From NCBI GenBank assembly GCA_964608275.1, contig CAZSNL010000001.1:9088-73087 (forward strand): a stretch of 64,000 nt of DNA, read 5' to 3'. The position numbers and the translations under genes were made by a program. Source of the stretch: an uncultured Hyphomicrobiales bacterium. Its GTDB lineage: Bacteria > Pseudomonadota > Alphaproteobacteria > Rhizobiales > CAZSNL01. Below, piece after piece: positions 6,325-62,240 of the stretch (positions are counted from its first letter, which is position 1; every line of letters starts with the position of its first letter). The notes beneath the pieces were generated by a model, which saw only the letters and a list, made by a program, of their open reading frames with translations, did not search any database and had not been told where the DNA came from.

Positions 6325-6327
6325 GCG

Positions 6328-19912: not shown

Positions 19913-19913
19913 G

Positions 19914-22753: not shown

Positions 22754-22800
22754 TGACCGCTCCCTGCTGCAATCCTCTTAGAAGGGATCGCCGTCAGACG

Positions 22801-22834: not shown

Positions 22835-22842
22835 ATCGGGGA

Positions 22843-23862: not shown

Positions 23863-23897
23863 GACGTTTTCCTCGTCCTGCACCGATCCGGGGCGCA

Positions 23898-24677: not shown

Positions 24678-24704
24678 CAGTACCTCCTTGGGGTTCGTGC
24701 GACA

Positions 24705-25514: not shown

Positions 25515-25516
25515 CG

Positions 25517-46994: not shown

Positions 46995-47070
46995 GCCGCT
47001 TTAGCTCAGTTGGTAGAGCACATCATTCGTAATGATGGGGTCGTCAGTTCGAGTCTGACAAGCGGCACCA
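46995..47070 (+). tRNA. tRNA-Thr (anticodon CGU), CCA encoded
   Basis: GCCGCTT/AAGCGGC acceptor stem, D arm GCTC-AGTTGGTA-GAGC, anticodon arm CATCA-TTCGTAA-TGATG, T arm GTCAG-TTCGAGT-CTGAC, then ACCA. 76 nt in total. Confidence 0.9.
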
Positions 47071-47416
47071 CTTTCCTTTCTGCGTTCTGATCCCGCTTTT
47101 CCGTACCACCTGCGCAGATCACCCGGATCGCTCGCCGATAATTGGGGGGTGATGCGGTACGTGCTGATGCCACAATCCGCCATCCTGCCAGGTATTCCGA
47201 CCACAAGGTCGACGGCAGATACAATGCCGCCATGGTGGTCTCTGCCGGACGTCGCGACCCATTCTGTACAATACAATCAAAAGTGGTAGTATATCCGCAC
47301 TCTGCCACCGTTGAGGGCCGACAGGTCGCGGCGGGAGCGGACAAGACAGCCTTGGGTGTCCTGAGGGACGCGTGGCGTTCGTCTCTGGCGCTGCGTACCG
47401 AACGGGGGGAGACACC

Positions 47417-50400
47417 ATGGGTACGCTTGCGCGCGTCGACACACGGGACGGTCGTCGATCGGTCGAGGCACTGAAGGACGAGGTCCGCCGCACCGGATTG
47501 TTCCACGATGACTGGTACAGGAGCAGGTATTACCCTGAGATCCGGTACACGGATGACCTGCTCGTTGACTACCTGATCGACGGTGCGGAAGCCGGCAGAA
47601 ACCCCAACCCCTACTTCGATGTCGCGTGGTACTGCGCGGCCTATCCCGAAGCAGGCGAACCCGTACGCTGCCTCCTGCACTACAGCCGGCGCGGGTGGAA
47701 AAGAGGCCACCGGCCGTGCGCGCACTTTGACCCGCAGCGGTACATCTCGGCCTATCCTGATGTTCGTGAAAGCGGCGCCGAGCCGCTCAAGCACTACCTT
47801 CACAACGGGTACTATGAGCAGCGGCGCATATTCCCGGTCGAGCATCCACGCTCGGCAACCGCCGTCGAGATTGCGCGGAGCGGGCTGTTCGCCGAAGGCT
47901 GGTACCGGGCGTCTCATCCCGACATCGGCGACAACTACGTGGATGCGGTGGAGCATTTCGTCATTCACGGCGCGGGAGAGGGGCGTCGTCCCAACCCGCT
48001 GTTCGACCCTGACTGGTATTCGCGAAACTGCCAGGCGGCAGGGAAGGGTGCTGAGCTGCTACTCCACTATGCCACCACGGGCTGGAAAGAGGGCTTGAAC
48101 CCGTCACCCCGGTTTGACGGCGACCGATATCTCGCCTGCTATGACGATGCCCGGACCGCGGCCATGTGTCCGCTGGCGCACTATCTGACGATCGGGGTGC
48201 TCGACGGCCGGGCCATCTTCGCAGTCACCGGCGCGTGTGACGAACGTCGGAAGGATGGCGAAGCAGATCGATCGCGGGTTCGGGTAGACCAACGGCTGCG
48301 GTTGCTGCTGTCGGGACGGAGCAATGGCGGCCGCCGGGCGAAGAAACCGCGGATCGGTCGCAGGTTTGACCCGTCCAGCCTCGACATTCACTGGGTGATA
48401 CCGGGCTTCGAGGCGGGAAGCGGCGGCCACATGGTCATCTTCCGCGTCGCCGCATTGCTGGAGTCGTTCGGTCACCGACAAACGCTCTGGATTGCCGATC
48501 CTGGCCGCGGTACCGCGGAGGAGATCAGGCGCGATGCGCTGATGCACTTTTTCCCGCTGCGCGCGCGATTTGCACTGCTGCATGAAGGCTTCGCGGCGGC
48601 AACGGGCGACGTGGTCCTGGCAACCGGTTGGGAAACGGTGGCTCCCGTCATGCGCAATCACGGCTTCCGCAACCGGATGTACTTCGTTCAGGACTACGAA
48701 CCCGACTTCTTTCCGAAGGGCAGCAACAGCCTCGCCGCCGAGTCGACCTACCGCTACGATATCGACTGTCTCTGCTCGAGCGCGTGGCTCGAGGATATCC
48801 TGCGCGACCGCTACGGCCGCTGGGTGCGGGCCTTCCACTATGCCGCCGACCGTGGCATGTTCGGTGCCCCTCCCAACGCGAGGTCGGAACGATCGCCCGG
48901 TGAACCGTACCGCATCGCGCTCTACCATCGTCCCGCGACCGCGCGGAGGGCGGGCGATCTTGCGCTTCTCGGACTTGAGGAACTCGCCGCCAGGAAGATC
49001 GACTTCCGGGCCGATTTATTCGGCGGCGTGGACCATCCCGGTGAATTGCCGTTCGGCTTCGTCCATCACGGTGTGCTGCCGGAGCCGGGCCTCGCCGATC
49101 TGTACAGGACCTGCGATGTCGGGGTCGTGTTCTCGTCGACCAATCCGTCGCTCGTGCCGTTGGAGATGATGGCATCCGGCCTGCCGGTGGTTGAGCTCGA
49201 CGGCGAGAGCACCCGTCGCGTGATTCCCGGGAACGTGGTCACTCTCACGCTGCCCGAGCCGGCATCGATCGCAGACGCCATAGAGGGGTTGCTGCACGAT
49301 CCGGAACGGCGGCAGCGGCAGGCCGCGGCCGCACGGGACTGGATCGGCCATTTCGAGTGGGTGGCGACGGCGCGGACGATAGAAGAGGCCATGGTCGAGC
49401 GTGTTGAGGAGCGCGGCTTCAGGCGGTCGGCGCCCCGGATCCAAATCGCGCAGGACACGGTGTCTGTGGTCATCCCCACCCTCAACGGCGGTGACGCATT
49501 GCTGGAGACCGTGAACAGGGTGCGCCGGCAACGGATCAGGCAGGCGATCGAGATCGTCGTTGTCGACAGTCAGTCCGACGATGGAACTGCTGAGGAATTG
49601 CGGCGTGCGGGCGATGTGAGGATGATCACTATCGATCGGGCCGACTTTTCGCACGGTGCGACGCGCAATCTTGCTGTCGATGCGGCGCGAGGCGAGACGG
49701 TCGCCTTGCTGACCCAGGATGCCCTGCCGGTGGATGACTGGTGGCTCGGTAACCTTGTCACCCTGCTCGATACCTATCCCGGTGCAGGCGGAGTTTTCGG
49801 CCGGCATTTCGCCCGGCCGGATGCATCGGCGTTCATCAAGCGCGATCTCATGCTCCATTTCGACGGTTTCGCCGACGGCCCGATTGTCGTGACGAAAGAG
49901 GACAGGACGCGGCTCGGCTCGGCCTGGCATTACTTCAGCAACAACAATTCAGCCATTCGCCGCTCCGTCTGGAAGGACATGCCGTTTCCCGATCTTCCGT
50001 TCGGCGAGGATCAGGTATGGGCCCGCACCATTCTGGACGCCGGCTATCAGAAGCTCTACGCCAATCGCGCGGCTGTCTACCACTCGCACGAGTACGATCC
50101 AGACGGCATCCGGGCACGCGCCGCAATGGAAGCGGGGTACTTCTGCCGCCAGTTCGGCTATGTGCTCGTCGCGTCGGAAGAGGATCTCCTCGAACAACTT
50201 CTGGTGCTCAATGATATCGACATGCGCTGGGGCAGCGGGCGCCAGCTGCCTCAGGCCGAGATAGACGCAAGACTTGCGTTGAACGCGGCCCGGCTGCGGG
50301 GCTTGCTCGACGGCTATCGCGAAGCCCGATACGGGCTGGACATCGAGCCGCCGTCACCAACGGAACTGCAACCGCCTCCTCCTTCAACGCGAGCTACGGG

Positions 50401-50434
50401 GTCGCCGCGGGGCGAGACAGGAGCGCCATCCTGA
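47417..50434 (+). CDS. large multidomain glycosyltransferase: N-terminal repeat array, GT4-like (group 1) domain, C-terminal GT2 (rhamnosyltransferase-like) domain
   Basis: The ATG at 47417 has GGGGGGAG upstream. GT4-type string VFSSTNPSLVPLEMMASGLPVVELDG. GT2-type VSVVIPTLNGGDALLETVNRV...VVVDSQSDDGT...LTQDALP. Confidence 0.8.
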   Translation: MGTLARVDTRDGRRSVEALKDEVRRTGLFHDDWYRSRYYPEIRYTDDLLVDYLIDGAEAGRNPNPYFDVAWYCAAYPEAGEPVRCLLHYSRRGWKRGHRPCAHFDPQRYISAYPDVRESGAEPLKHYLHNGYYEQRRIFPVEHPRSATAVEIARSGLFAEGWYRASHPDIGDNYVDAVEHFVIHGAGEGRRPNPLFDPDWYSRNCQAAGKGAELLLHYATTGWKEGLNPSPRFDGDRYLACYDDARTAAMCPLAHYLTIGVLDGRAIFAVTGACDERRKDGEADRSRVRVDQRLRLLLSGRSNGGRRAKKPRIGRRFDPSSLDIHWVIPGFEAGSGGHMVIFRVAALLESFGHRQTLWIADPGRGTAEEIRRDALMHFFPLRARFALLHEGFAAATGDVVLATGWETVAPVMRNHGFRNRMYFVQDYEPDFFPKGSNSLAAESTYRYDIDCLCSSAWLEDILRDRYGRWVRAFHYAADRGMFGAPPNARSERSPGEPYRIALYHRPATARRAGDLALLGLEELAARKIDFRADLFGGVDHPGELPFGFVHHGVLPEPGLADLYRTCDVGVVFSSTNPSLVPLEMMASGLPVVELDGESTRRVIPGNVVTLTLPEPASIADAIEGLLHDPERRQRQAAAARDWIGHFEWVATARTIEEAMVERVEERGFRRSAPRIQIAQDTVSVVIPTLNGGDALLETVNRVRRQRIRQAIEIVVVDSQSDDGTAEELRRAGDVRMITIDRADFSHGATRNLAVDAARGETVALLTQDALPVDDWWLGNLVTLLDTYPGAGGVFGRHFARPDASAFIKRDLMLHFDGFADGPIVVTKEDRTRLGSAWHYFSNNNSAIRRSVWKDMPFPDLPFGEDQVWARTILDAGYQKLYANRAAVYHSHEYDPDGIRARAAMEAGYFCRQFGYVLVASEEDLLEQLLVLNDIDMRWGSGRQLPQAEIDARLALNAARLRGLLDGYREARYGLDIEPPSPTELQPPPPSTRATGSPRGETGAPS

Positions 50435-50554
50435 GCCGGTGCGGGGTCAAGCGCGGACGCGGTTTTCCGGGGTTGTCTTGCCGATCGGTTGCAGCCGGTC
50501 AGGATCGGGTCGTCTCCGACAACCATGCCGCAGTCCACCGGAGCGGAGCCCGCG

Positions 50555-51256
50555 ATGCCACATCTGCCGATCTTCATGCACCTGACAAAGACCGCTGGCG
50601 GAACCCTCAAGGAGGGCATTCGCCAGGCCGCCGGCATGAGGCCACTGTTCGTATATTCGCCGGATGCCCTGGCCGAATTCGATCGCGAGGAGCACAACAT
50701 CGTCTATGGCCACATGGCTTTCGGCGTGCATGCGACACTCGACATCCCGCCCGAGTACTACTGCTTCCTGCGCCATCCGTGGTCCCGGACGATTTCCCAT
50801 TTTCATCATCTCGCAAACAACGATCGCTCCCGGGTCGGCGACAAGATGCGCCGCTACGACGATATCAACGACTTCTTCCGTCACGGCCGGCACTGGGAGT
50901 TCGAGAACTTCATGTGTCGCATGCTGTCGGGCGTGGCGGACGGCGATTGCGAGGTCGACCGACTGTACGAACTGGCCGCCGACAACGCCGTACGCCATTT
51001 CCGGTTCATCGGTTTTCATGAGTTCTTCGACCTGTCGGTGCTCAAGCTGTCGCACTGCCTCGGGCGGCGCATCAGGATCAGGCGCAACGTCAATGTGGGC
51101 AGCTACGACCGGTTTTCGGTCAACCGCCGGACGGCCGACCGCATCGTGGCCGAGAACCAGGCCGACATGCGCCTCTACCGGTTTTGCCTGACGCAGTTCC
51201 TGGAGCGGTTCGATAGCGGCCGAGACTTTCTGCTCGCCGACTCCCGGCCGTTCTAA
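50555..51256 (+). CDS. sulfotransferase family protein
   Basis: MPHLPIFMHLTKTAGGTLKEGI matches the PAPS 5'-phosphosulfate-binding loop pattern (hIP/LKTGGT) of bacterial sulfotransferase family 2. FLRHPWSRTISHFHH may be the 3'-phosphate motif. An alternative start lies at 50525. Confidence 0.7.
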   Translation: MPHLPIFMHLTKTAGGTLKEGIRQAAGMRPLFVYSPDALAEFDREEHNIVYGHMAFGVHATLDIPPEYYCFLRHPWSRTISHFHHLANNDRSRVGDKMRRYDDINDFFRHGRHWEFENFMCRMLSGVADGDCEVDRLYELAADNAVRHFRFIGFHEFFDLSVLKLSHCLGRRIRIRRNVNVGSYDRFSVNRRTADRIVAENQADMRLYRFCLTQFLERFDSGRDFLLADSRPF

Positions 51257-51352: not shown

Positions 51353-52063
51353 ATGCAGGAGTTGCCGCGCCAGTCCACGATCTTCGACGCCGTCTATGAA
51401 GCGATCCGGGATTCCATCTGCGACGGCGACCTCGCGCCCGGCGAGCGGATCACCCAGGACAACATTGCCGACCGTCTCGGTGTCTCGCGTCAGCCGGTAG
51501 GTCAGGCCCTGATCCTGCTCAAGGCGCAGGGGTTCGTCAGCGATGCCGGTCGGCGCGGCGTCGTGGTTGCGCCGCTGGATGCGCAGAGCGTGAGGGACAT
51601 CTACGCAATTCGCGGTGCGCTGGATTCCCTGGCAGCGCGGCTGGCGGCCAGGCGCGGGCCGGACGGTGCGGCACGCAAGGACGGCGCCCGCCTCATCGCC
51701 GACGGACGGGCGGCTGTCGCGGACGGTGCAAGCCTGTCCACGCTGGTGAGAGCCGACATGGCGTTCCACGAGTTTATATACGAGCTTTCAGGGAATGCCC
51801 TTATCCACCAGTCGCTGCTCACCCATTGGCAGCACCTGCGTCGGGTGATGGCCAGCGTGATCGAGAACACGACATATTTGGACAGGATGTGGCAGGAGCA
51901 CGAGGCGATCCTCGAAGCGATCGCCGCCGGCGACGAGGCGCGCGCCGCTGAGCTGTCACAGAGCCATGTCGAACGCGCGTCGCAGGCGCTTCAGGAAAGG
52001 CTTGCCGTGGTCAGCGGCAGCCATACGCACAGGCAGATCAAATCAAGAGGCACGGGTACATGA
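51353..52063 (+). CDS. GntR family transcriptional regulator (FCD subfamily), first gene of the mutase operon
   Basis: ITQDNIADRLGVSRQPVGQALILLKAQGFVSDAGRRGVVV plus an FCD-like C-terminus. Its stop overlaps the next start (ATGA at 52060). Confidence 0.85.
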   Translation: MQELPRQSTIFDAVYEAIRDSICDGDLAPGERITQDNIADRLGVSRQPVGQALILLKAQGFVSDAGRRGVVVAPLDAQSVRDIYAIRGALDSLAARLAARRGPDGAARKDGARLIADGRAAVADGASLSTLVRADMAFHEFIYELSGNALIHQSLLTHWQHLRRVMASVIENTTYLDRMWQEHEAILEAIAAGDEARAAELSQSHVERASQALQERLAVVSGSHTHRQIKSRGTGT

Positions 52064-52479
52064 CACCTACGGGTTCCCCACAAATCCGCGTCATGCTGGC
52101 CAAGGTCGGGCTCGATGGCCACGACCGCGGCGTCAAGGTCGTTGCGCGGGCGCTGCGCGATGCCGGGATGGACGTGATCTACACCGGACTTCACCGTACC
52201 GCCGAGGAGGTGGCGCTCGCCGCGGTGCAGGAGGACGTCGACGTGCTGGGCATCAGTCTTCTGTCCGGCGCACACATGACGATCTTTCCCAAGGTATTGA
52301 AGACGCTCGAGGAGCAGGACAGCAAGGGCATCATCGTCGTCGGCGGCGGCGTGATGCCCGACGAAGACGCGACAGCGCTGAAGGAGATGGGCGTGAGGGA
52401 GATCCTCATGCAGGACACCCCGCCGAAGACCATTGTTGACACGATCGAGCGCCTCGTCGTCGAGCGCGGACCGCGCTGA
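52060..52479 (+). CDS. hcmB: B12-binding small subunit of an acyl-CoA mutase (2-hydroxyisobutyryl-CoA mutase HcmB-like)
   Basis: IRVMLAKVGLDGHDRGVKVVARALRDAGMDVIYTG carries the DxHxxG cobalamin-binding motif. 139 aa, the size of IcmB/HcmB-type subunits. Confidence 0.8.
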   Translation: MTPTGSPQIRVMLAKVGLDGHDRGVKVVARALRDAGMDVIYTGLHRTAEEVALAAVQEDVDVLGISLLSGAHMTIFPKVLKTLEEQDSKGIIVVGGGVMPDEDATALKEMGVREILMQDTPPKTIVDTIERLVVERGPR

Positions 52480-52502
52480 CGCTGCGAGGACCGGCTGCGG
52501 CG

Positions 52503-54245
52503 ATGACGGGACAGGTTTCCGATTGCAGTGTCGCGGCGGCCGTCGCCCGTCTGTTGCGTGCCCGCGGCACGGAGCGGATCTTCGCGCTGTGTGGCGGCCA
52601 CATCATGCCGTTGTGGATGCGGATCGACGCCGAGGGGATCGCGATCGTCGACGTGCGCGACGAGCGGGCCGCGGTCCACATGGCGCAGGCCCATGCGGAG
52701 GTGACCGGCGGCCTTGGGGTCGCGCTCGTCACCGCCGGTCCCGGCGTCACCAACGCGGTCACCGGCATTGCCAACGCCCATGTCTCGCGCACGCCGGTGC
52801 TGGTGCTGTCGGGAAGCGTCACGCGCCCACAGGCCGGCCGCGGCGCGCTCCAGGACATGGACCACGCTACGCTTGCGCGGCCGATCACGCGTTACGCCCG
52901 CACGGTCTCCGAACCCGGTTCGGTCCTGCGCGAGCTCGACGAGGCGATCGCCAGGGCGTCCGGCGAGGGGGGCGAGCCGGGCCCCGTCCTGTTCGATCTT
53001 CCCGTCGATACCCAGCGGTCCGAACTGCCGGCAGCGGTTGAACTGACCGAACACGTCGCCGCGAAGCCGGCGCCGGTCCTGGTGCCGGAGGCGGCAGCCG
53101 TACGGCGCGCGGCCGAGAAGCTTCTTGACGCCGAACGTCCGCTGGTCATCTCGGGTCGCGGGGCGCGGAAGGCGGGGCCGGAACTCGTCGCGCTGCTCGA
53201 CCGGCTGGACGCCGTCTATCTCGATACCGGCGAGAGCCGGGGCCTCGTCCCGGACGATCATCGTGCCGTGGTATCGTCGATGCGTGGCACCGCCATGCGC
53301 GAAGCCGATCTGGTGCTGACCGTCGGCCGGAGGCTCGACTTTCAGCTGGCGTTCGGTTCACCGGCCGTGTTCGGCGATGCCGAGTTCATCCGCATTGCCG
53401 ACTGCGCCGCCGAGTTGCGCGACAACCGTCGCGGCACGGTCGAACTGCTCGGCAGCATTCCCGAGACGCTGGCCGCCATCACCGAGGCGATCGGCAATGC
53501 CCGGCGCCGTCGCGACACGGCCTGGCTTGCCCGGTTGCGGGAGGGCCACGCGGAGCGGGTGCGGACGGCCCGCAGCAGCATGGCCGAGGCGCCGGACGGA
53601 GGCGATGGCCGGGTGCACCCGAAGCGGCTTCTTTCGGCGCTCCAGGCACGACTCGGACCGGATGCCATCGTCGTCATAGACGGCGGCGACTTCCTGAGCT
53701 TTGCGCGCATCGGGCTGTCGGCTCCGACCATGCTCGATCCGGGTCCGTTCGGCTGCATCGGCGTCGGCGTACCCTACGGCATCGCGGCGAGCCTTGCGCG
53801 CCCGGATGCCCCGGTCGTCGTGGCGACCGGCGACGGCGCCTTCGGGTTCAACGCGATCGAGATCGATACCGCGGTCCGACACAAGGCGCCCCTTCTCATC
53901 GTCGTCGCCAACAACGGCGCCTGGCAGATCGAGGTGCATGATCAGCTGCACACCCATGGCCGGGTGGTCGGGACACAGCTCCAGTTCGCCGACCATGCCG
54001 CGATGGCGCGCGCCTTCGGCATGTACGCCGAGCGGGTCGAACGGGCGGACGATCTCGACGGCGCGCTCGACAGGGCGTTCGCGAACCGCCCGTCACTCGT
54101 CGATGTCGTGGTGACGCCGGAAGCGGTGTCGTCGGACTCACGGACGGGGCTGGCGCAGGTTCCCGACCTGCAGCCGCTTGCCGCCTGGGACGAGGCGGAA
54201 CGGGCGTGGCTGCAGGCGGGGTCCGCGAGCGGGGGAGTGGGATGA
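52503..54245 (+). CDS. thiamine diphosphate-dependent enzyme of the oxalyl-CoA decarboxylase / 2-hydroxyacyl-CoA lyase type
   Basis: N-terminal Pyr domain ALVTAGPGVTNAVTGIANA. Central RGLVPDDH resembles the KGL(L/V)PDNH string of OXC/HACL rather than acetolactate synthase. ThDP motif GDGAFGFNAIEIDTAVRHKAPLLIVVANNGAW. Confidence 0.8.
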   Translation: MTGQVSDCSVAAAVARLLRARGTERIFALCGGHIMPLWMRIDAEGIAIVDVRDERAAVHMAQAHAEVTGGLGVALVTAGPGVTNAVTGIANAHVSRTPVLVLSGSVTRPQAGRGALQDMDHATLARPITRYARTVSEPGSVLRELDEAIARASGEGGEPGPVLFDLPVDTQRSELPAAVELTEHVAAKPAPVLVPEAAAVRRAAEKLLDAERPLVISGRGARKAGPELVALLDRLDAVYLDTGESRGLVPDDHRAVVSSMRGTAMREADLVLTVGRRLDFQLAFGSPAVFGDAEFIRIADCAAELRDNRRGTVELLGSIPETLAAITEAIGNARRRRDTAWLARLREGHAERVRTARSSMAEAPDGGDGRVHPKRLLSALQARLGPDAIVVIDGGDFLSFARIGLSAPTMLDPGPFGCIGVGVPYGIAASLARPDAPVVVATGDGAFGFNAIEIDTAVRHKAPLLIVVANNGAWQIEVHDQLHTHGRVVGTQLQFADHAAMARAFGMYAERVERADDLDGALDRAFANRPSLVDVVVTPEAVSSDSRTGLAQVPDLQPLAAWDEAERAWLQAGSASGGVG

Positions 54246-55675
54246 TGGAATACTGGACGTTTCCGCCGGCCTACGATGACGGCTACCTGCCCGGCGCTGA
54301 CAGCCGCTACTGGTTCCCGGTGCGGGAAACCATGGATCCCGGCGAGCGGGAGCGGGCGATCCTCGAACGCCTGAAGCAGGTCACCCGTTACGCCTGGGAG
54401 AAGTCGCCGTTCTATCGCCGCAAGTGGGACGCGGCGGGATTCCACCCCGACCACCTGAAGTCGCTGGAGGACTTCGAGGACAAGGTGCCGGTCATCACCA
54501 AGGCCGACCTGCGCGAGGCCCAGGAACGAGCGCCGACGTTCGGCGATTATCTCTGCATCGGCGAAGATGAGGTGTTTCATATCCACGGCACGTCCGGGAC
54601 CACTGGCAACCCGACCGCGTTCGGCATCGGTCGCGGCGACTGGAATGCCATCGCCAATGCCCATGCCCGCATCATGTGGGCAATGGGTCTGCGGCCCGGA
54701 GACACCATATTCATCGCCGCCGTGTTCAGCCTCTATCTCGGGTCCTGGGGCGCGCTCATTGGCGCCGAACGGCTGGGGGCGCGCGCATTCCCGTTCGGTG
54801 CCGGTGCCTCCGGCATGTCGGCGCGGGCGGTTCAATGGATGCGCCGCTTCAAGCCGACCGCCTTCTACGGAACACCGTCCTATGCCATCCATCTGACCGA
54901 GGTGGCCGCGGAGGCCGGCATCGACCCGCGCGAGTTCGGGCTCAAGCTCCTGTTCTTCTCCGGCGAGCCCGGCGCCTCGATACCGGGCGTGCGGGACCGC
55001 ATTGCCGAGAGCTATGGTGCCCGCGTCATCGATTGCGGCTCGATGGCCGAGATGACGCCGTGGATGAACCTCGCCGGTACCGACGGGACCGACGGCATGG
55101 TGGTGTGGCAGGACGTGGTCTATACCCAGGTGTGCGACCCGAAGTCCTTCCGCCGGGTCGGCTACGGCGAGCGCGGAACGCCCGTCTACACGCACCTGGA
55201 ACGGACGTCACAGCCGATGATCCGTCTGGTCTCCGGCGACCTGACGCTGTGGCAGGATGGGCCTACTCCGTGCGGCCGCACCTACCCGCACCTGCCGAAC
55301 GGCGTTTTCGGCCGCATCGATGATGCGTTCACGGTGCGCGGCGAGAACATCTATCCGAGCGAGATCGATGCGGCGCTGAACGAACTCGAGGGCTACGGCG
55401 GCGAGCACCGCATCATCATCACCCGCGAGGCGGCCATGGACGAGCTGATCGTTCAGGTGGAGGCCAGCCGGGACATCTGTGCCGCGGGGGACGGGGCGAA
55501 ACGCCGGTTTGGCCAGACCGTGACCCAGGAGCTCAACAGGCTGCTGGGCATCCGTGCATCCGTGGAGGTGGTCGACGAGCAGACCATCCCGCGCACCGAC
55601 TTCAAGGCGCGCCGCGTGATCGACGATCGCGAGGTGTTCCGTCAGTTCGAACAGAAGCTGGGACCGAAGCCATGA
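54242..55675 (+). CDS. hcl: phenylacetate-CoA-ligase-like AMP-forming acyl-CoA ligase (2-hydroxyisobutyrate-CoA ligase candidate)
   Basis: The ATG at 54242 overlaps the upstream stop (ATGA). HGTSGTTGNPT (P-loop of the PaaK clade), YGTPSYAIHL, FTVRGENIYPSEID, TDFKARRVIDDRE. Confidence 0.75.
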   Translation: MMEYWTFPPAYDDGYLPGADSRYWFPVRETMDPGERERAILERLKQVTRYAWEKSPFYRRKWDAAGFHPDHLKSLEDFEDKVPVITKADLREAQERAPTFGDYLCIGEDEVFHIHGTSGTTGNPTAFGIGRGDWNAIANAHARIMWAMGLRPGDTIFIAAVFSLYLGSWGALIGAERLGARAFPFGAGASGMSARAVQWMRRFKPTAFYGTPSYAIHLTEVAAEAGIDPREFGLKLLFFSGEPGASIPGVRDRIAESYGARVIDCGSMAEMTPWMNLAGTDGTDGMVVWQDVVYTQVCDPKSFRRVGYGERGTPVYTHLERTSQPMIRLVSGDLTLWQDGPTPCGRTYPHLPNGVFGRIDDAFTVRGENIYPSEIDAALNELEGYGGEHRIIITREAAMDELIVQVEASRDICAAGDGAKRRFGQTVTQELNRLLGIRASVEVVDEQTIPRTDFKARRVIDDREVFRQFEQKLGPKP

Positions 55676-56670
55676 CCGCCGTACCGCCACTTCCCTCACT
55701 GGCCCTTGTCGAGGGCGTCCGCGCCGGCAAGGTGGCCGCGATCGCCCGGCTCATCTCGCGCGTCGAGGCGAACAGCGACGAGGTCGAAGAGGCACTCGCC
55801 GAGATCCACCGCCACACCGGGAAGGCGCACATCGTCGGCATCACCGGGGTTCCCGGCAGCGGCAAGTCGACCCTCATCGCCCAGCTGTGCCGGGCGGTGC
55901 GCGAGACCGGCCGCAAGGTCGGTGTCGTGGCCATCGATCCGACCAGCCCGTTCTCCGGTGGCGCTATCCTCGGCGACAGGATACGCATGAGCGACCTCAA
56001 CGCCGATCCCGACGTGTTCATCCGCTCGATGGCCACGCGCGGCGCCCTCGGCGGCCTCTCTCGCGCCACCGTGCCGGCGGTCGACGTACTGGACGCGGCG
56101 GGATACGAGGTCGTCATCATAGAAACCGTCGGCGTCGGCCAGGACGAGGTCGACGTGGTGAGGGCCGCGCACACCACGGTCGTGGTGTCCGCCCCGGGTC
56201 TCGGCGACGACATCCAGGCGATCAAGGCCGGTGTGCTGGAGATCGCCGACATCCATGTCGTTTCCAAATGCGACCGCCCCGACGCCAACCGGACGGTAAC
56301 TGAGCTGAAGAGCATGCTCGGGCTGGGCCTGAAGCTGGAGCAGGGCGGCGGCTGGCGGATCCCCGTGATCCCCACGAGCTCGGTCTCGGGCGAGGGAATC
56401 GACGAGTTGCTCTCCGCAATCGACGGGCACCTCCAGTCGATGAAGGAAAGCGGCGAGCTTGCAGAGCGTCTCCTCGCCATGGCGGAGATGCGCCTGCTCA
56501 AGTCGGCAGAGGGCATGCTGCGCGACCGCTTCGAGGCCGAACGCAAGGGCAAGGTGCGGTCCATCGCCGAGCGGATTATCCGCTTCGAACTTTCGCCACG
56601 GGCCGGTGCCCGCCTGCTGCTCGACGAGATACAGGGAGAGATCAATGGTCAAGGCAATGAACCCGCATGA
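55672..56670 (+). CDS. meaH: MeaB/ArgK-type G-protein chaperone for B12 mutases
   Basis: GITGVPGSGKSTLI (P-loop), VVAIDPTSPFSGGAILGDRIRM, IIETVGVGQDEVD, VVSKCDR. The start overlaps the ligase stop (ATGA). Confidence 0.85.
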   Translation: MTAVPPLPSLALVEGVRAGKVAAIARLISRVEANSDEVEEALAEIHRHTGKAHIVGITGVPGSGKSTLIAQLCRAVRETGRKVGVVAIDPTSPFSGGAILGDRIRMSDLNADPDVFIRSMATRGALGGLSRATVPAVDVLDAAGYEVVIIETVGVGQDEVDVVRAAHTTVVVSAPGLGDDIQAIKAGVLEIADIHVVSKCDRPDANRTVTELKSMLGLGLKLEQGGGWRIPVIPTSSVSGEGIDELLSAIDGHLQSMKESGELAERLLAMAEMRLLKSAEGMLRDRFEAERKGKVRSIAERIIRFELSPRAGARLLLDEIQGEINGQGNEPA

Positions 56671-58339
56671 CGATCTGAGCGAGATCGAGCGCTCGCTGGA
56701 AGACTGGGAGCGCGGCGAGCTTGCCGCGTTCCTGCAGCGACAGCCGGAACGGAAGGACGAGTTCCAGACCTACGGCGGTTTCCCGACCAAGCGCGTCTAT
56801 ACGCCTCTCGACGTGGCGGACATCCCGTACGAGGACATCGGCCTGCCCGGTCGCTATCCGTTCACCCGCGGGCCCTATCCCACCATGTACCGCGGCCGGA
56901 TCTGGACCATGCGCCAGATCGCGGGCTTCGGTACCGCGGAGGATACCAACGCACGCTTCAGGTATCTGATCGAGCAGGGCCAGACCGGGATTTCGACCGA
57001 CTTCGACATGCCGACGCTCATGGGCTACGACTCCGACCATCCGATGAGCGAGGGCGAGGTCGGACGCGAGGGCGTCGCCGTCGATACGCTCGCCGACATG
57101 GAGATCCTGTACGACGGCATCGACCTGGAGAACATCTCCGTGTCGATGACCATCAATCCGACGGCCTGGATCCTGCTGGCGATGTACGTGGCGCTGGCCG
57201 AGAAGCGGGGTCTCGACCTCAACCGGCTGTCGGGAACCATCCAGGCCGATATCCTGAAAGAGTATATCGCGCAGAAGGAGTGGATCTTCCCGATTGCGCC
57301 ATCGGTCCGGATCGTGCGCGACTGCATCACCTGGTCGGCGCGCAACATGAAGCGCTACAACCCGATCAACATCTCCGGCTACCACATCTCCGAAGCGGGC
57401 GCGTCGCCGGTCCAGGAAGTCGCCTTCACGCTCGCCAACACCATCACCTACGTCGAGGAAGTCACGAAGACGGGCATGGACGTCGACGAGTTCGCGCCAA
57501 GGCTCTCGTTCTTCTTCGTCTGCCAGGCCGATTTCTTCGAGGAGGTGGCCAAGTTCCGTGCCGCAAGACGGTGCTACGCAAAGATCATGAAGGAGCGCTT
57601 CGGCGCCAAGGACCCGGCGTCGATGCGGCTCAGGTTCCATTGCCAGACGGCTGCGGCAAGCCTCACCAAGCCGCAATACAAGATCAACATCGTCCGCACC
57701 GGGCTGCAGGCGCTTGCCGCGGTGCTCGGCGGCGCCCAGAGCCTGCATACCAACGGCATGGACGAGGCCTTCGCGATCCCGACCGAGGAGGCGATGAAGA
57801 TCGCGCTGCGGACCCAGCAGATCATTGCCCATGAGACGCGCGTCGCCGACGTCATCGATCCGCTGGGAGGCTCGTACTACGTCGAATCGCTGACCAGCCA
57901 GTACGAGAAGGCGATCTTCGCGATCCTTGACGAGATCGACGCCAAGGGCGGAACGATCAAGCTCATCAACGAAGGCTGGTTCCAGCGGCACATTGCGGAC
58001 TTCGCCTACGAAACGGCAATCCGGAAGCAGGACGGCGAACACCCGGTGGTAGGCGTCAACTGCTACGTCGAGGGCGAGGAGCAGCACGACATCGAGATCC
58101 ACCCCTACGATCCGACGACGGCGGAACGCCAGATCGCCCGGCTGAACCATGTCCGTGCCACCCGCAACGAGGCGGAGGTGCAAGGCCTGCTGGAGCGGCT
58201 CAAGGCGGTCGCCCGCGACGAGAGCGAGAACATCATGCCGGTCACGATCGACCTCGTCCGGGCCGGCGCCACGATGGGCGACATAGTCGAGACACTGAAG
58301 ACCGTCTGGGGGACCTACCGCGAAAACCCGGTGTTCTGA
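56645..58339 (+). CDS. hcmA: acyl-CoA mutase large (substrate-binding) subunit with 2-hydroxyisobutyryl-CoA mutase signature residues
   Basis: GRYPFTRGPYPTMYRGRIWTMRQIAGFGT has Ile at 56918-56920, where methylmalonyl-CoA mutase has Tyr and isobutyryl-CoA mutase has Phe. GISTDFDMPT has Asp at 56999-57001. C-terminus GATMGDIVETLKTVWGTYRENPVF. The start is 56645 or 56657, overlapping meaH. Confidence 0.85.
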   Translation: MVKAMNPHDDLSEIERSLEDWERGELAAFLQRQPERKDEFQTYGGFPTKRVYTPLDVADIPYEDIGLPGRYPFTRGPYPTMYRGRIWTMRQIAGFGTAEDTNARFRYLIEQGQTGISTDFDMPTLMGYDSDHPMSEGEVGREGVAVDTLADMEILYDGIDLENISVSMTINPTAWILLAMYVALAEKRGLDLNRLSGTIQADILKEYIAQKEWIFPIAPSVRIVRDCITWSARNMKRYNPINISGYHISEAGASPVQEVAFTLANTITYVEEVTKTGMDVDEFAPRLSFFFVCQADFFEEVAKFRAARRCYAKIMKERFGAKDPASMRLRFHCQTAAASLTKPQYKINIVRTGLQALAAVLGGAQSLHTNGMDEAFAIPTEEAMKIALRTQQIIAHETRVADVIDPLGGSYYVESLTSQYEKAIFAILDEIDAKGGTIKLINEGWFQRHIADFAYETAIRKQDGEHPVVGVNCYVEGEEQHDIEIHPYDPTTAERQIARLNHVRATRNEAEVQGLLERLKAVARDESENIMPVTIDLVRAGATMGDIVETLKTVWGTYRENPVF

Positions 58340-58492
58340 TGTCGCGCAGCGGGCGGTAGTGCCACGCACATGGCAGACTGTCGACGGCATCGCGCATCTC
58401 GCCGCCGTGGACGTGCGGCTCCCATCGCTTGCCGATGCGCTGCCGCACCGTTATTGCCCGGTGAGCGATGAGGCAACGACGAGGAGCAGGCG

Positions 58493-59320
58493 ATGATCGA
58501 AACCGTGCGCAGTGTCGTCCACCCGTGGGAATGTGACGCGGTCGAGCATTTCACCACCGCCTACTATTACCGCGCCTTCGGGTGGGCAGGCTGGCACCTG
58601 CTGCAGCGCCTCGGTCACGATGCGGCGGCCATCGCCGCTCTGCGACCGGTGAGCTGCCGCACCCGGTTCCTGCAGGAGCTGCGGGCCGGCGATGCCTACC
58701 ACATCACCTCGGGCATCGTCGAAGCCGGCGGAGGGGCCCTCGTGCTCGGTCACAGGCTGTTCAATTCGGAAACCGGGGAAACGGCCGCGACGCATGCCGA
58801 ACGCCGCGAGGGACCGACGCGCAGCCGCTACGATCCCGGCCTTGCAGCGGAGCTGGACGAGACGAAGCCTGTGGGGGAAGTGGATTTCGAACGGCTGGAC
58901 ATGTGGTCGACCACCGCCATGACCATTGTCAAGGCGAGCGACCTCGACCACACTGGACAGTTCGGCCTCGATGCGCTGATCCACCATGCATCCGACGCCA
59001 ACGTCCAGTTCCAGAACATGATCGCGATGACCTCCAGCTACATGCACGAGAATCGCATCGGGTTTGCCACGGCGGAGTACCAGATCGCACTCGGCCCGCT
59101 GCCCCGGGCCATCGGAACGGTGGTGGAAACGAAGAGTGCGCTCGCCCATCTCGGGAGAACGTCGCTGTGGATGGCGCATCGGGCGACGGACTGCGCGACC
59201 GGCGAGACGGTGGCCAGGATCGCGCAGTTCGGCGTCCACCTCGACCGCAGGGCCCGCCGCCCCGCCGAGATCCCGCCGCACATCCGGGAAGCCGCCTCCG
59301 CCCGCCTCGTGACGGCCTGA
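58493..59320 (+). CDS. tandem hotdog-fold acyl-CoA thioesterase (two 4HBT-like halves)
   Basis: The two halves each begin with a thioesterase-like string: SVVHPWECDAVEHFTTAYYY and MTIVKASDLDHTGQFGLDALIHHASDA. 275 aa is consistent with a double hotdog. Confidence 0.65.
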   Translation: MIETVRSVVHPWECDAVEHFTTAYYYRAFGWAGWHLLQRLGHDAAAIAALRPVSCRTRFLQELRAGDAYHITSGIVEAGGGALVLGHRLFNSETGETAATHAERREGPTRSRYDPGLAAELDETKPVGEVDFERLDMWSTTAMTIVKASDLDHTGQFGLDALIHHASDANVQFQNMIAMTSSYMHENRIGFATAEYQIALGPLPRAIGTVVETKSALAHLGRTSLWMAHRATDCATGETVARIAQFGVHLDRRARRPAEIPPHIREAASARLVTA

Positions 59321-59329
59321 TCTCCGCCG

Positions 59330-61387: not shown

Positions 61388-61469
61388 TGCCTGCTCCGCC
61401 TGTCAACCGGTCCTGCACCCAACGCCTGAGCACGGCAAATGTTCTGACCCGCAAGGCGGTCTCATTGTA

Positions 61470-62240
61470 CTACCTGTCGGTTTCGTCGCGCTTCAGGCCC
61501 TTCAGCCAGTCGGCGATCTCCATCGGGAAGGGAAACACGATCGTGGAATTCTTCTCGCTGCCGATGACGGTCAGCGCACCGAGATATCTGAGTTGCATCG
61601 CCTCGGGGCGCTGCGCCAGGATGTTGGCCGCCTCGAGGAGGCTTTGCGCCGCCTGTTGCTCGCCGAGGGCGTTGATCACCTTGGCTCGTCGCTCGCGTTC
61701 GGCCTCGGCCTGGCGGGCAATGGCGCGGACCATCGATTCGTCGATGTCGACATGCTTGATCTCGACATTGGCAACCTTGATCCCCCAGGCGTCGGTCTGT
61801 GCGTCGAGGATCTCCTGGATGTCGTTGTTGAGCTTGTCGCGTTCGGCCAGCATCGCATCGAGATCGTGCTTGCCGAGTACCGAGCGCAGCGTTGTCTGGG
61901 CGAGCTGGCTCGTGGCCGTCATGTAGTCCTCGACCTGGATGGTGGCCCGCGCCGGATCGATGACGCGGAAGTAGATCACCGCATTGACCCGTACGGAGAC
62001 GTTGTCGCGGCTGATCACGTCCTGGGTCGGTACATCGAGGACCAGGACGCGCAGGTCCATTCGCACCATCTGCTGGATGAACGGAATCAGAATGATCAGG
62101 CCCGGTCCCTTGACGCTGGTGAATCGGCCGAGGGTGAACACCACGCCGCGCTCGTACTCGCGCAGGATCTTGATCGCTGTCGCCAGGAAGGCGACCACGA
62201 TGATGGCAATCGCCAGATAGAAGCTGATGTCCTCGAACAT
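61470..62240 (-). CDS. SPFH/Band 7 (stomatin-like, slipin) family protein
   Basis: N-terminal TM, then [13 protein letters not shown]...[11 protein letters not shown]...[26 protein letters not shown]...TLRSVLG...ER. Confidence 0.9.

What the first reader, a model, noticed from the sequence alone, without database searches (positions are those of the whole stretch)
52503..54245. An oxalyl-CoA-decarboxylase / 2-hydroxyacyl-CoA-lyase-like ThDP enzyme is nested inside the mutase operon
- The 580-aa ThDP enzyme sits between the small mutase subunit and the CoA ligase. Its stop is translationally coupled to the ligase start (ATGA at 54242).
- Its central string RGLVPDDH resembles the KGL(L/V)PDNH string I associate with OXC/HACL enzymes rather than acetolactate synthases.
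- Established knowledge (from memory): an actinobacterial HACL-family lyase cleaves 2-hydroxyisobutyryl-CoA to acetone + formyl-CoA as an alternative to the mutase route. HACL enzymes can also run the reverse acyloin condensation.
- Inference: one operon may encode both known fates of 2-hydroxyisobutyryl-CoA, giving a branch point or a B12-independent bypass.
- Alternatively it may encode an assimilation route: acetone + formyl-CoA to 2-hydroxyisobutyryl-CoA to 3-hydroxybutyryl-CoA.
- I am not aware of a described operon combining the two enzymes.
- The downstream double-hotdog thioesterase (58493-59320) could handle formyl-CoA or proofread off-pathway CoA esters.
Basis: partly seen in the sequence, partly recalled or inferred. 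Interest (0 to 1): 0.65.

Follow-up and report, generated by a model that had tools for sequence, protein, structure and literature searches.

The report
2-Hydroxyisobutyryl-CoA lyase inside the mutase operon
One tightly packed, transcribed operon of a compost alphaproteobacterium encodes both known enzymes that consume 2-hydroxyisobutyryl-CoA (the B12 mutase and a thiamine-dependent lyase), a pairing that is widespread, old, repeatedly lost and almost unremarked in the literature.

Summary
ORF 52503-54245 (580 aa) lies between hcmB and hcl, and its stop codon overlaps the hcl start.

It is an orthologue of the Actinomycetospora 2-hydroxyisobutyryl-CoA lyase (AcHACL), not just HACL-like:
- It passes NCBIfam equivalog NF058623 (785 bits, cutoff 600).
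- It is 52% identical to PDB 7PT1, and its model matches at TM 0.90.
- The hallmark residues E54, L116, Q117, I476 and E477 and the C-terminal lid are conserved.

Its neighbours match the crystallised HCL and HcmA at E 1e-236 and 7e-298. Compost metatranscriptome contigs span the gene junctions.

The combination is not unique. About a third of related hcm operons (12 of 35) carry this lyase after hcmA, including Methylibium petroleiphilum PM1, where the searchable literature does not mention it. A 2026 paper notes it in Mycolicibacterium ELW1. The nested position is rarer: 3 complete cases and 2 cut contigs.

The window's closest lyase-less relatives keep lyase-gene stubs in the hcmB-hcl spacer. 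The gene was therefore deleted there, not recently inserted here.

The most likely role is a second catabolic outlet (ketone plus formyl-CoA) for CoA esters made by HCL. ELW1 still needs cobalt, which argues against a growth-supporting B12-free bypass. This is a new variant of a known kind, of moderate interest.

The parts
51353..52063 (+). GntR/FCD-family transcriptional regulator, co-directional with the operon. Its stop overlaps the hcmB start by 4 bp.
   Evidence: Pfam GntR + FCD. Coordinates. RNA contig 51639-52714 runs from this gene through hcmB into the lyase.
52060..52479 (+). hcmB, the small B12-binding subunit of 2-hydroxyisobutyryl-CoA mutase
   Evidence: Pfam B12-binding; TIGR00640, 147 bits. 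63-86% identical to HcmB of the related hcm operons surveyed.
52503..54245 (+). ThDP-dependent 2-hydroxyacyl-CoA lyase of the AcHACL type, predicted to be a 2-hydroxyisobutyryl-CoA lyase (the finding)
   Evidence: NF058623 at 785.5 bits against a cutoff of 600. PDB 7pt1 at E 5e-172. 52% identity and conserved hallmark residues. Foldseek TM 0.90 to AcHACL.
54242..55675 (+). hcl, 2-hydroxyisobutyrate-CoA ligase (PaaK type). The start is ATG 54242 or 54245; both overlap the lyase stop.
   Evidence: PDB 6hdw (2-hydroxyisobutyryl-CoA synthetase) at E 1e-236, 789 bits; phenylacetate-CoA ligases score only 231 bits.
55672..56670 (+). meaH/meaB, the G-protein chaperone of the mutase
   Evidence: Pfam MeaB at 299 bits; TIGR00750 at 331 bits, cutoff 241.
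56645..58339 (+). hcmA, large subunit of 2-hydroxyisobutyryl-CoA mutase (564 aa by public gene calls). It overlaps meaH by 26 bp.
   Evidence: PDB 4r3u_A at E 7e-298, 992 bits, against 447 bits for methylmalonyl-CoA mutase. The motifs RQIAGFG and GISTDFD are identical to the crystallised HcmA. Gene call.
58493..59320 (+). Double-hotdog thioesterase-like protein, 154 bp after hcmA. Probably the last gene of the unit. It is a generic accessory of hcm operons, not tied to the lyase.
   Evidence: Two 4HBT_2 stretches. The same gene follows hcmA in the lyase-less relatives L088-L090 and L167-L169. RNA contig 57355-61718 covers it.

Best explanation
The gene encodes a functional ThDP-dependent 2-hydroxyacyl-CoA lyase of the AcHACL family. 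It is co-transcribed with hcl, hcmAB and meaH.

Proposed mechanism:
1. HCL activates 2-hydroxyisobutyrate, and probably close tertiary 2-hydroxy acids, to the CoA ester.
2. The AdoCbl mutase HcmAB, kept active by MeaH, isomerises 2-hydroxyisobutyryl-CoA to (S)-3-hydroxybutyryl-CoA. This is the carbon-conserving main route.
3. The lyase is a second catabolic outlet. It cleaves the same ester to acetone plus formyl-CoA, and C5 homologues to butanone plus formyl-CoA.

What the outlet would achieve:
- It disposes of esters the mutase cannot convert.
- It frees CoA when the mutase is short of cofactor or inactivated.

The outlet is accessory. It was part of hcm operons early, sits at different places in them, and has been deleted repeatedly.

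Basis:
- Shown by sequence and structure comparison: the identities of all six proteins, the operon packing, transcription in compost, and the evolutionary pattern.
- Inferred only: the substrates, the direction of the reaction in vivo, and the physiological benefit.
For: Identity of the enzyme:
- It passes the curated equivalog model NF058623 (785 bits, cutoff 600). It fails every ALS, OXC and Xsc model.
- The best PDB matches are the five AcHACL sequences (about 575 bits). Other HACL, HACS and OXC chains score about 220 bits or less.
- E54, L116, I476 and E477 correspond to AcHACL E65, L127, I492 and E493. A 41-residue C-terminal lid aligns without a gap. Q117 is invariant in alignment A1 and corresponds to AcHACL Q128.
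- These are the residues Zahn et al. tie to catalysis and to the C4/C5 size limit.
- The AlphaFold model matches AcHACL at TM 0.90, against 0.82 for HACS and OXC.

Partners:
- HCL matches at E 1e-236 and HcmA at E 7e-298, with the Ile/Asp signature motifs.

Operon and expression:
- Neighbouring genes overlap or lie at most 23 bp apart.
- No internal terminator stands out above chance.
- RNA contigs identical to the window span 51639-52714 and 53679-57040. Depth is 30-44 over the operon against 0.65-9 upstream.

Catabolic direction:
- This lyase family almost always sits beside an acyl-CoA ligase. That ligase is HCL in actinobacteria and in hcm operons, and an ANL-type ligase in 73 of 80 proteobacterial loci, there often with a PQQ alcohol dehydrogenase.
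- AcHACL is the catabolic enzyme of 2-HIBA degradation and cleaves the C5 homologue at an equal rate.

Recurrent linkage with the mutase:
- 12 of 35 hcm operons with enough downstream sequence carry the lyase after hcmA.
- It is nested in the window, L061 and L073, and directly upstream of hcl in L153 and L164.
- PM1 and ELW1 have it in the same cluster.
- In ELW1 it is co-induced with the mutase, at log2FC 5.3 for RNA and 5.0 for protein.

Accessory and dispensable:
- Lyase stubs lie in the hcmB-hcl spacer of L142, L160 and L167/L168. They score 23.6, 13.2 and 15.4 bits, against control maxima of 1.8 and 3.9.
Against: - No enzyme assay exists for any proteobacterial member. Identity to the characterised enzyme is only 52%.
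- The window holds no gene for acetone, formate or formyl-CoA metabolism, so the fate of the products is unknown.
- Making both enzymes from one transcript gives no obvious way to partition flux.
- ELW1 cannot grow on 2-HIBA without Co2+ although it expresses the lyase. So at least there the outlet does not sustain growth.
- The RNA evidence comes from assembled contigs without strand information. One contig runs across a convergent gene boundary, so some DNA carry-over cannot be excluded.
- Frequent loss could also mean the gene brings little benefit.
Confidence: 0.6

Rival explanations
1. Ketone assimilation. The lyase runs in the condensing direction (acetone + formyl-CoA to 2-hydroxyisobutyryl-CoA), and the mutase then makes 3-hydroxybutyryl-CoA. 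This would be an aerobic counterpart of the acetone-activation route of Desulfococcus and Desulfosarcina, without a carboxylase.
For: - AcHACL is reversible.
- Sulfate reducers combine a ThDP enzyme with a 2-hydroxyisobutyryl-CoA mutase for exactly this purpose.
- Lyase and mutase are linked in many operons.
- PM1 has a 3-hydroxybutyryl-CoA dehydrogenase at the end of the same cluster.
Against: - The operon keeps HCL, a ligase specific for the free acid, which this route does not need. Rohwerder et al. note that D. biacutus lacks HCL for this reason.
- The conserved partner of this lyase family is always a ligase.
- No gene that generates formyl-CoA (frc, oxc, acylating dehydrogenase) lies in the window or in the inspected clusters.
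- The regulator is a GntR/FCD type. From general knowledge, these usually sense carboxylates.
- The Desulfococcus enzyme is only 22% identical to AcHACL.
Confidence: 0.12
2. True B12-independent bypass. The lyase alone lets the cell grow on 2-HIBA when cobalamin is lacking.
For: - The lyase route supports slow growth of A. chiangmaiensis, which has no mutase.
- hcm clusters are full of cobalamin-handling genes (MeaH, and adenosyltransferases in PM1 and Py2). This shows that cofactor supply is a real constraint.
Against: - ELW1 has and induces the lyase yet needs Co2+ for growth on 2-HIBA and its precursors.
- The window shows no acetone-utilisation genes.
- The lyase is co-expressed with the mutase rather than regulated separately.
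Confidence: 0.12
3. The enzyme serves another substrate that merely shares the ligase, for example 2-methylglyceryl-CoA or other small 2-hydroxyacyl-CoA esters from isoprene or alkene breakdown. In that case its link to 2-HIBA is incidental.
For: - AcHACL binds and cleaves 2-methylglyceryl-CoA.
- Rohwerder et al. propose isoprene-derived substrates.
- Most proteobacterial homologues sit with a different ligase and a PQQ alcohol dehydrogenase, not with HCL.
Against: - In the window the only ligase in the unit is a close homologue of the 2-HIBA-specific HCL.
- The residues that limit substrate size (L116, I476) and the lid are as in AcHACL.
- Linkage to hcmAB recurs in several independent arrangements.
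Confidence: 0.1
4. Functionless passenger. The gene is a relic on its way to loss and does nothing useful in this organism.
For: - It has been deleted repeatedly from the same position in related operons.
- It is absent from many hcm operons, including X. autotrophicus Py2 and Agrobacterium deltaense.
Against: - The 580-codon frame is intact and all catalytic and cofactor-binding residues are conserved.
- GC3 is typical of the operon.
- The protein is identical across 22 contigs from different samples.
- It is transcribed at operon level in compost.
- It retains translational coupling to hcl.
Confidence: 0.06

Closest known systems
[quoted passage not shown]
   Same: - Same NCBIfam equivalog family.
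- 52% identity over the full length.
- Same catalytic Glu on the active-site helix, the same size-limiting Leu and Ile, the same Gln, and the same long C-terminal lid.
- Adjacent to hcl and near a GntR-family regulator gene.
   Different: - The host is an alphaproteobacterium (Hyphomicrobiales by the best slipin hits).
- The gene lies inside an hcmB-hcl-meaH-hcmA operon, whereas A. chiangmaiensis has no mutase and pairs the lyase with mpdBC.
- No biochemistry exists for this clade.
hcmAB-hcl-meaH operon of Aquincola tertiaricarbonis L108 and Methylibium petroleiphilum PM1 (B12-dependent 2-HIBA pathway)
   Same: - Same four genes in the same order, hcmB-hcl-meaH-hcmA.
- HcmA E 7e-298 and HCL E 1e-236 against the crystallised L108 proteins.
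- A GntR-family regulator sits next to the operon.
   Different: - The window has the lyase inserted between hcmB and hcl, a co-directional regulator, and a hotdog thioesterase.
- PM1 has the lyase three genes after hcmA, followed by a gamma-CA-like protein, adenosyltransferases and a 3-hydroxybutyryl-CoA dehydrogenase.
- The searchable literature lists the PM1 pathway genes without the lyase.
ibc cluster 2 of Mycolicibacterium sp. ELW1 plasmid pELW1-1 (AEM 2026)
   Same: - hcl, mutase, chaperone and an AcHACL-family lyase lie in one catabolic cluster.
- The lyase is induced together with the mutase.
[quoted passage not shown]
   Different: - In ELW1 the lyase lies 4.5 kb after hcmA, behind a regulator gene, an oppositely oriented ilvC and a dehydrogenase gene. 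It is therefore a separate transcription unit.
- It is 47% identical to the window protein.
- The host is an actinobacterium.
Acetone activation in Desulfococcus biacutus and Desulfosarcina cetonica (ThDP enzyme plus RcmAB-like mutase)
   Same: A ThDP enzyme and a 2-hydroxyisobutyryl-CoA mutase act on the same intermediate and are induced together.
   Different: - The ThDP enzyme there has 685 aa and is only 22% identical to AcHACL.
- The mutase is of the Rcm type.
- There is no HCL.
- The pathway runs towards assimilation under anoxic conditions.
Oxalyl-CoA decarboxylase and HACL1/HACS-type lyases (E. coli Oxc, RuHACL, ApbHACS)
   Same: Same ThDP fold and the same formyl-CoA-releasing chemistry. 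Foldseek TM about 0.82.
   Different: - Only 26-28% identity.
- E. coli Oxc has Tyr at both positions where the window enzyme has L116 and E477, and a C-terminal tail of only 20 residues.
- The window protein fails the OXC family cutoffs (256 bits against 557; 237 against 739).

Membership tests
AcHACL-type 2-hydroxyacyl-CoA lyase (NCBIfam NF058623) | Scores above the curated equivalog cutoff of the family model and below the cutoffs of sister families | tested here: met
   785.5 bits against a cutoff of 600. The next models all fail: PRK05858 376 against 587, OXC 256 against 557, ALS 252 against 538, Xsc 207 against 676.
AcHACL-type 2-hydroxyacyl-CoA lyase (NCBIfam NF058623) | Catalytic glutamate E493 on the short active-site helix, with neighbouring I492 | tested here: met
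   The window has I476-E477 in the aligned columns. E. coli OXC has I-Y there.
AcHACL-type 2-hydroxyacyl-CoA lyase (NCBIfam NF058623) | L127 and Q128 in the active site (size limit and carbanion handling) | tested here: met
   L116-Q117 in the string GALQD. Both are invariant in the 28-sequence alignment. OXC has Tyr at the Leu position.
AcHACL-type 2-hydroxyacyl-CoA lyase (NCBIfam NF058623) | Extended C-terminal lid (AcHACL residues 556-590) that closes the site and limits substrates to C4/C5 | tested here: met
   - A 41-residue tail aligns without a gap to the AcHACL lid. OXC has 20 residues.
- Foldseek aligns 567-580 columns to AcHACL chains.
- The model is of low confidence at 543-555, so the closed conformation itself is not shown.
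AcHACL-type 2-hydroxyacyl-CoA lyase (NCBIfam NF058623) | ThDP binding: cofactor-activating Glu and the GDG(X)nNN motif | tested here: met
   E54 in VRDE aligns with AcHACL E65. GDGAFGFNAIEIDTAVRHKAPLLIVVANN lies at 443-471.
AcHACL-type 2-hydroxyacyl-CoA lyase (NCBIfam NF058623) | Cleaves 2-hydroxyisobutyryl-CoA to acetone plus formyl-CoA | not testable with these tools
   This needs an enzyme assay. Only the Actinomycetospora enzyme has been assayed.
2-Hydroxyisobutyryl-CoA mutase operon (hcmAB-hcl-meaH) | Large subunit closest to HcmA, with the Ile and Asp substrate-site signature instead of the Tyr/Arg of methylmalonyl-CoA mutase | tested here: met
   - 4r3u_A scores 992 bits against 447 for MCM.
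- The motifs RQIAGFG and GISTDFD are identical to the crystallised HcmA.
- The meaning of the two residues rests on my recollection of Yaneva 2012 and Kurteva-Yaneva 2015, which are not held in the library.
2-Hydroxyisobutyryl-CoA mutase operon (hcmAB-hcl-meaH) | Separate small B12-binding subunit, MeaB-type chaperone and PaaK-type 2-HIBA-CoA ligase in one unit | tested here: met
   The order hcmB-hcl-meaH-hcmA is that of the complete operons among the 80 related loci.
Oxalyl-CoA decarboxylase | Passes the OXC family models and has active-site tyrosines at the positions aligned with AcHACL 127 and 493 | tested here: not met
   256 bits against 557 and 237 against 739. The window has Leu and Glu where E. 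coli Oxc has Tyr and Tyr. Identity is 28%.
Acetolactate synthase / sulfoacetaldehyde acetyltransferase | Passes any ALS or Xsc family model | tested here: not met
   All ALS and Xsc models score 185-376 bits against cutoffs of 510-1084.

The most novel reading that the evidence does not exclude
The AcHACL-type lyase and the Hcm mutase form an old two-enzyme module that can also run backwards in aerobes. In that direction formyl-CoA plus acetone (or butanone) gives 2-hydroxyisobutyryl-CoA, which the mutase converts to 3-hydroxybutyryl-CoA. This would give soil and compost Proteobacteria an ATP-sparing, carboxylase-free route for ketone and C1 assimilation, built from an enzyme unrelated to the one used by sulfate reducers.
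Probability: 0.12. Interest if true: 0.8.

Novelty: new variant of a known kind. Interest (0 to 1): 0.5.

Why it matters
Current accounts treat the mutase route and the lyase route as alternatives found in different bacteria. The survey here points to a different picture:
- The two enzymes are often encoded together, including in the model MTBE degrader PM1.
- The pairing is old.
- The lyase has been lost again and again.

This raises a concrete question that cultured strains can answer: what does a cell gain from a carbon-wasting cleavage beside a carbon-saving isomerisation of the same ester? Candidate answers are cofactor shortage, C5 substrates or CoA rescue.

It also matters for fuel-oxygenate and isobutene bioremediation, because acetone and formate may be unrecognised by-products.

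For synthetic one-carbon pathways, the survey gave 416 confirmed relatives in species-representative genomes. These proteobacterial AcHACL-type enzymes are naturally co-expressed with a mutase that pulls the condensation product on to 3-hydroxybutyryl-CoA.

Tried and rejected
1. Recent insertion of the lyase into the window's operon.
   - This was my first reading, because the closest syntenic operons lack the gene.
   - I rejected it when lyase stubs turned up in the same spacer of L142, L160 and L167/L168.
   - GC3 also shows no anomaly.
2. The thioesterase as a lyase-specific formyl-CoA hydrolase.
   - Rejected as specific. The hotdog gene, a tandem hexapeptide (PaaY/gamma-CA-like) gene or an ECH_2 hydrolase-type gene occupies the same place in operons with and without the lyase.
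3. The RGLVPDDH motif as a family marker.
   - It is only loosely shared with E. coli OXC, so I did not use it.
4. Promoter and terminator scan of the operon.
   - Nothing above chance, so it is uninformative.
5. Search of the rest of the window for acetone, formate or formyl-CoA genes.
   - None found.
6. Stub search in X. autotrophicus Py2 and Agrobacterium deltaense.
   - Negative.
7. Older hcm papers (Rohwerder 2006, Yaneva 2012, Weichler 2015).
   - They are not held in the library, so I could not check whether their gene-cluster figures show the ThDP gene.
8. First bootstrap run with Biopython.
   - It timed out. I redid it with numpy distances.
9. Relations among the basal hcm-linked lyases.
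   - They stay unresolved (bootstraps 4-12%), so the number of independent rearrangements cannot be stated.
Full report
**Observation.** The ORF at 52503-54245 (+) is real. It starts with ATG, encodes 580 aa and ends with TGA at 54243-54245. It follows the B12-binding small mutase subunit (52060-52479) after 23 bp. Two in-frame ATGs of the ligase gene (54242 and 54245) both overlap its stop, so translational coupling holds whichever start is used. Public gene calls and homologue alignments favour 54245.

The whole unit is tightly packed:
- GntR/FCD regulator, 51353-52063
- hcmB, 52060-52479
- lyase, 52503-54245
- hcl, to 55675
- meaH, 55672-56670
- hcmA, 56645-58339
- double-hotdog protein, 58493-59320

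GC3 of the lyase gene (0.84) matches its neighbours at 0.85-0.87. The window is 65% G+C. Its slipin protein is closest to those of Chelativorans, Phyllobacterium and Methyloceanibacter (80-85%), which places the organism in the Hyphomicrobiales without a close named relative. About 20 manure, compost, soil and fertiliser metagenome runs hold 98-100% of the sampled words of the locus. The lyase protein is identical on 22 contigs with the same gene order.

**What the protein is.** Pfam sees only the three generic ThDP domains. NCBIfam is more specific. The protein scores 785.5 bits on NF058623, the equivalog model for 2-hydroxyacyl-CoA lyase (cutoff 600), and fails every acetolactate synthase, oxalyl-CoA decarboxylase and sulfoacetaldehyde acetyltransferase model. 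Against all PDB sequences, the five best matches are the Actinomycetospora lyase AcHACL and its mutants (E 5e-172, about 575 bits). Other HACL, HACS and OXC chains reach about 220 bits or less.

Identity to AcHACL is 52% over 566 aligned positions. Zahn et al. defined the features that make AcHACL a short-chain lyase, and the 2026 follow-up adds Q128:
- the cofactor-activating E65
- the catalytic E493 on a short helix
- L127 and I492, which limit the acyl size
- a long C-terminal lid, residues 556-590

The window protein has E54, L116, Q117, I476 and E477 in those columns, and a 41-residue tail that aligns without a gap. E. coli Oxc has Tyr at both the 127 and 493 positions and a 20-residue tail.

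An AlphaFold model (pLDDT 81.7) matches AcHACL chains at TM 0.90 (ranks 1-16), and HACS and OXC at 0.82. The model is uncertain only in the E477 helix and the lid breakout. These correspond to the elements that close over the substrate in the crystal structures.

E. coli Oxc reads KGILEDTH there.

**The neighbours.** HcmA matches the crystallised 2-hydroxyisobutyryl-CoA mutase large subunit at E 7e-298 (992 bits, against 447 for methylmalonyl-CoA mutase). The motifs RQIAGFG and GISTDFD, which hold the Ile and Asp that distinguish Hcm, are identical. The meaning of these two residues rests on my recollection of papers that the library does not hold. The ligase matches the crystallised 2-HIBA-CoA ligase at E 1e-236, against 1e-67 for phenylacetate-CoA ligases. 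MeaH and HcmB pass their family models. So the operon encodes the activating enzyme and both known consumers of 2-hydroxyisobutyryl-CoA.

**Expression.** Compost metatranscriptomes contain the gene. In run X25, assembled RNA contigs identical to the window span two stretches:
- 51639-52714 (regulator, hcmB, lyase)
- 53679-57040 (lyase, hcl, meaH, hcmA)

Depth is 30-44 over the operon, against 0.65-9 at 44-47 kb and 5 just upstream. This uneven profile argues against plain DNA carry-over. However, contigs carry no strand, and one contig runs on into the convergent downstream gene. Co-transcription is therefore likely but not proven. No σ70-like promoter and no convincing terminator lie inside the unit.

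**How common is the combination?**

*Searching with the lyase.* The scan of one genome per species gave 416 confirmed relatives. Among the 80 closest (68-74% identity; Bradyrhizobium, Acetobacteraceae, Methylobacterium, Xanthobacter, Burkholderiaceae), only two share the window's order hcmB-lyase-hcl-meaH-hcmA. These are L061, a Xanthobacteraceae MAG, and L073. In 73 of the 80, the lyase instead sits beside an ANL-type acyl-CoA ligase, often with a PQQ alcohol dehydrogenase and a GntR regulator.

*Searching with HCL.* In 80 metagenome loci (68-80% identity), the standard operon is hcmB-hcl-meaH-hcmA with an hcmB-hcl spacer of 8-173 bp. Twelve of the 35 operons with at least 2 kb after hcmA carry the lyase 97-1128 bp downstream on the same strand. 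These represent about eight distinct lineages. Two further contigs (L153, L164) begin inside a lyase C-terminus directly upstream of hcl, and L125 has a lyase start directly after hcl.

*Cultured strains with plasmid-borne hcm.* M. petroleiphilum PM1 and Mycobacterium sp. ELW1 carry the lyase in the same cluster. X. autotrophicus Py2 and Agrobacterium deltaense do not. All tested homologues pass the equivalog cutoff at 685-962 bits.

**Gain or loss?** The window's closest HCL relatives (79-82% identity) share even its co-directional regulator and hotdog gene, but they lack the lyase. That looked like a recent insertion into the window's operon. It is not.

- In L167/L168 (80% HCL identity) the 175-bp hcmB-hcl spacer holds a 40-codon ORF, MTAMTNAFGIAACIERRLRVHGVDQVFGLCGGEAPAAGDK. 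It matches positions 7-31 of a profile built from 123 full-length lyases (15.4 bits, E 6e-5 among the 231 spacer translations).
- In L142 the spacer encodes AHVASVPDLHALATWDQAERAWRER, matching the last 25 profile positions, the end of the lid (23.6 bits, E 2e-7). It still scores E 1e-5 among 18,897 six-frame segments.
- In L160 the spacer encodes a shorter version of the same end (13.2 bits).
- Reverse-strand translations of the same spacers score at most 1.8 bits. Translations of 20 shuffles of each spacer score at most 3.9.

The nested lyase was therefore present in the ancestors of at least three lyase-less lineages and was deleted. The window retains it.

A neighbour-joining tree agrees:
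- The family is separated from its outgroups (bootstrap 100%).
- The proteobacterial clade has 99.5% support.
- The lyases not linked to hcm form one derived crown clade (100%).
- The hcm-linked lyases, whether nested or downstream, form the basal grade.
- Two hcm-linked sequences (L138, L156) group with the actinobacterial enzymes (96.5%).

Relations within the basal grade are unresolved, so I cannot say how many rearrangements occurred.

**Accessory genes.** A thioester-hydrolase-like gene follows hcmA or the lyase in most operons, but its fold varies:
- a double hotdog in the window and its nearest relatives
- a tandem hexapeptide (gamma-CA/PaaY-like) protein in many others, including PM1, Py2, L061 and L073
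- an ECH_2 (3-hydroxyisobutyryl-CoA-hydrolase-type) protein in L138

These genes occur with and without the lyase. A general CoA-rescue role is my inference, by analogy with PaaY of the phenylacetate pathway, recalled from memory.

**Literature.**
- Rohwerder et al. (2020) describe lyase-hcl clusters in actinobacteria that lack the mutase. They state that hcl was otherwise known only with mutase genes, and they point to D. biacutus as the one strain combining a distant ThDP enzyme (22% identical) with an Rcm-type mutase for acetone activation.
- Frey et al. (2021) extend this to Desulfosarcina.
- The 2026 ELW1 paper lists a ThDP lyase at the edge of the 37-kb cluster that also holds hcl and the mutase, calling it a possible minor route. 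Its Table S3 shows log2FC 5.26 (RNA) and 5.04 (protein) on isobutylene. ELW1 nevertheless needs Co2+ to grow on 2-HIBA.
- No paper in the searchable library mentions the PM1 gene or links this lyase family with hcm operons in Proteobacteria. The older hcm papers are not held, so I cannot exclude that a figure there shows it.

**Mechanism.** The best-supported reading is a catabolic branch. HCL makes the CoA ester, HcmAB with MeaH carries the main flux to 3-hydroxybutyryl-CoA, and the lyase cleaves the same ester or its C5 homologue to a ketone and formyl-CoA. The conserved ligase-lyase pairing across the whole family speaks for the cleavage direction. AcHACL's equal activity on 2-hydroxy-2-methylbutyryl-CoA suggests substrate-range extension. 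Repeated loss, and the ELW1 cobalt requirement, fit an accessory relief outlet better than a growth-supporting bypass. The reverse, assimilatory reading remains possible but lacks a formyl-CoA source and does not explain HCL.

**Verdict.** The family assignment is right and can be made more specific. The 'both fates in one operon' idea holds at sequence level. The novelty claim is only partly right. New here are:
- the nested architecture
- the frequency of the pairing, including in PM1
- the stubs that show repeated deletion

This is a new variant of a known kind, of moderate interest and readily testable in PM1.

Noticed in passing
L167:6863-6985 (also L168:3167-3289); L142:597-734; L160, hcmB-hcl spacer 3571-3680: The hcmB-hcl spacers of lyase-less hcm operons hold short remnants of the lyase gene. 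L167/L168 keep the N-terminal 25 residues. L142 and L160 keep the C-terminal 22-25 residues. All score far above reverse-strand and shuffled controls.
   Followed up: yes
L174 (M. petroleiphilum PM1 plasmid RPME01), 11929-13689: The model MTBE degrader PM1 has an AcHACL-family gene (MPE_RS22155, 742 bits on NF058623) inside its hcm cluster, between an adenosyltransferase and a gamma-CA-like gene. The published pathway gene table that I could read skips it.
   Followed up: partly
L061:15893-16933, L073:7330-8454, L097:15884-17026, L151:7822-8880, L174:13686-14708, L178:8972-10018: A tandem hexapeptide (left-handed beta-helix, gamma-carbonic-anhydrase/PaaY-like) protein of about 350 aa is a frequent last gene of hcm operons. 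The window and its nearest relatives have a double-hotdog protein at that place, and L138 has an ECH_2 hydrolase-type gene. Three unrelated folds thus occupy one position.
   Followed up: partly
L016:9003-10001 (B. oligotrophicum S58) and 25 other loci of L001-L080: A conserved ORF of about 330 aa with no Pfam match sits between the ANL-type ligase and the lyase in 26 of the 80 loci that hold the window lyase's closest relatives. Its function is unknown.
   Followed up: no
window 19301-25961 (- strand): A protein with a C-terminal BMC shell domain lies beside an aldehyde-dehydrogenase-like ORF, an APH-family kinase and an SDR. This resembles the aminoacetone / 1-amino-2-propanol (RMM-type) microcompartment loci, which I know from memory.
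   Followed up: no
window 5389-8847 (+): A Ku gene is followed directly by a full-length LigD (phosphoesterase, ligase and primase-polymerase domains). This is a non-homologous end-joining pair.
   Followed up: no
window 46995-51256: tRNA-Thr(CGT) is followed by a 1005-1020 aa double glycosyltransferase (WsaF-like plus GT2) and a 233-255 aa ORF without a Pfam match. They separate a TRAP-transporter block from the hcm operon. The RNA contigs covering 48.2-50.6 kb carry many variants, as if from a second strain.
   Followed up: no
L116:10273-10494: A second fragment matching the lyase C-terminus (profile 522-569, 60 bits) lies in another frame directly after the full-length lyase gene. It could be a partial tandem duplication or an assembly artefact.
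   Followed up: no
L125:2167-2379: A lyase N-terminus starts 146 bp after hcl, where meaH normally lies. This is a third gene order, seen only on a cut contig.
   Followed up: no
plasmid hits H6 and H7; Natrinema, Natribaculum and Haloarcula hits: Haloarchaeal plasmids carry lyase-like genes (42-43% identical) and HcmA-like genes (about 53%). I did not check whether both lie on the same replicon or in one cluster.
   Followed up: no
window 57355-61718: One metatranscriptome contig of run X25 covers the end of hcmA, the thioesterase and the whole convergent PCMT/erythromycin-esterase fusion gene (59330-61387, - strand). This could be read-through, antisense RNA or DNA carry-over.
   Followed up: partly
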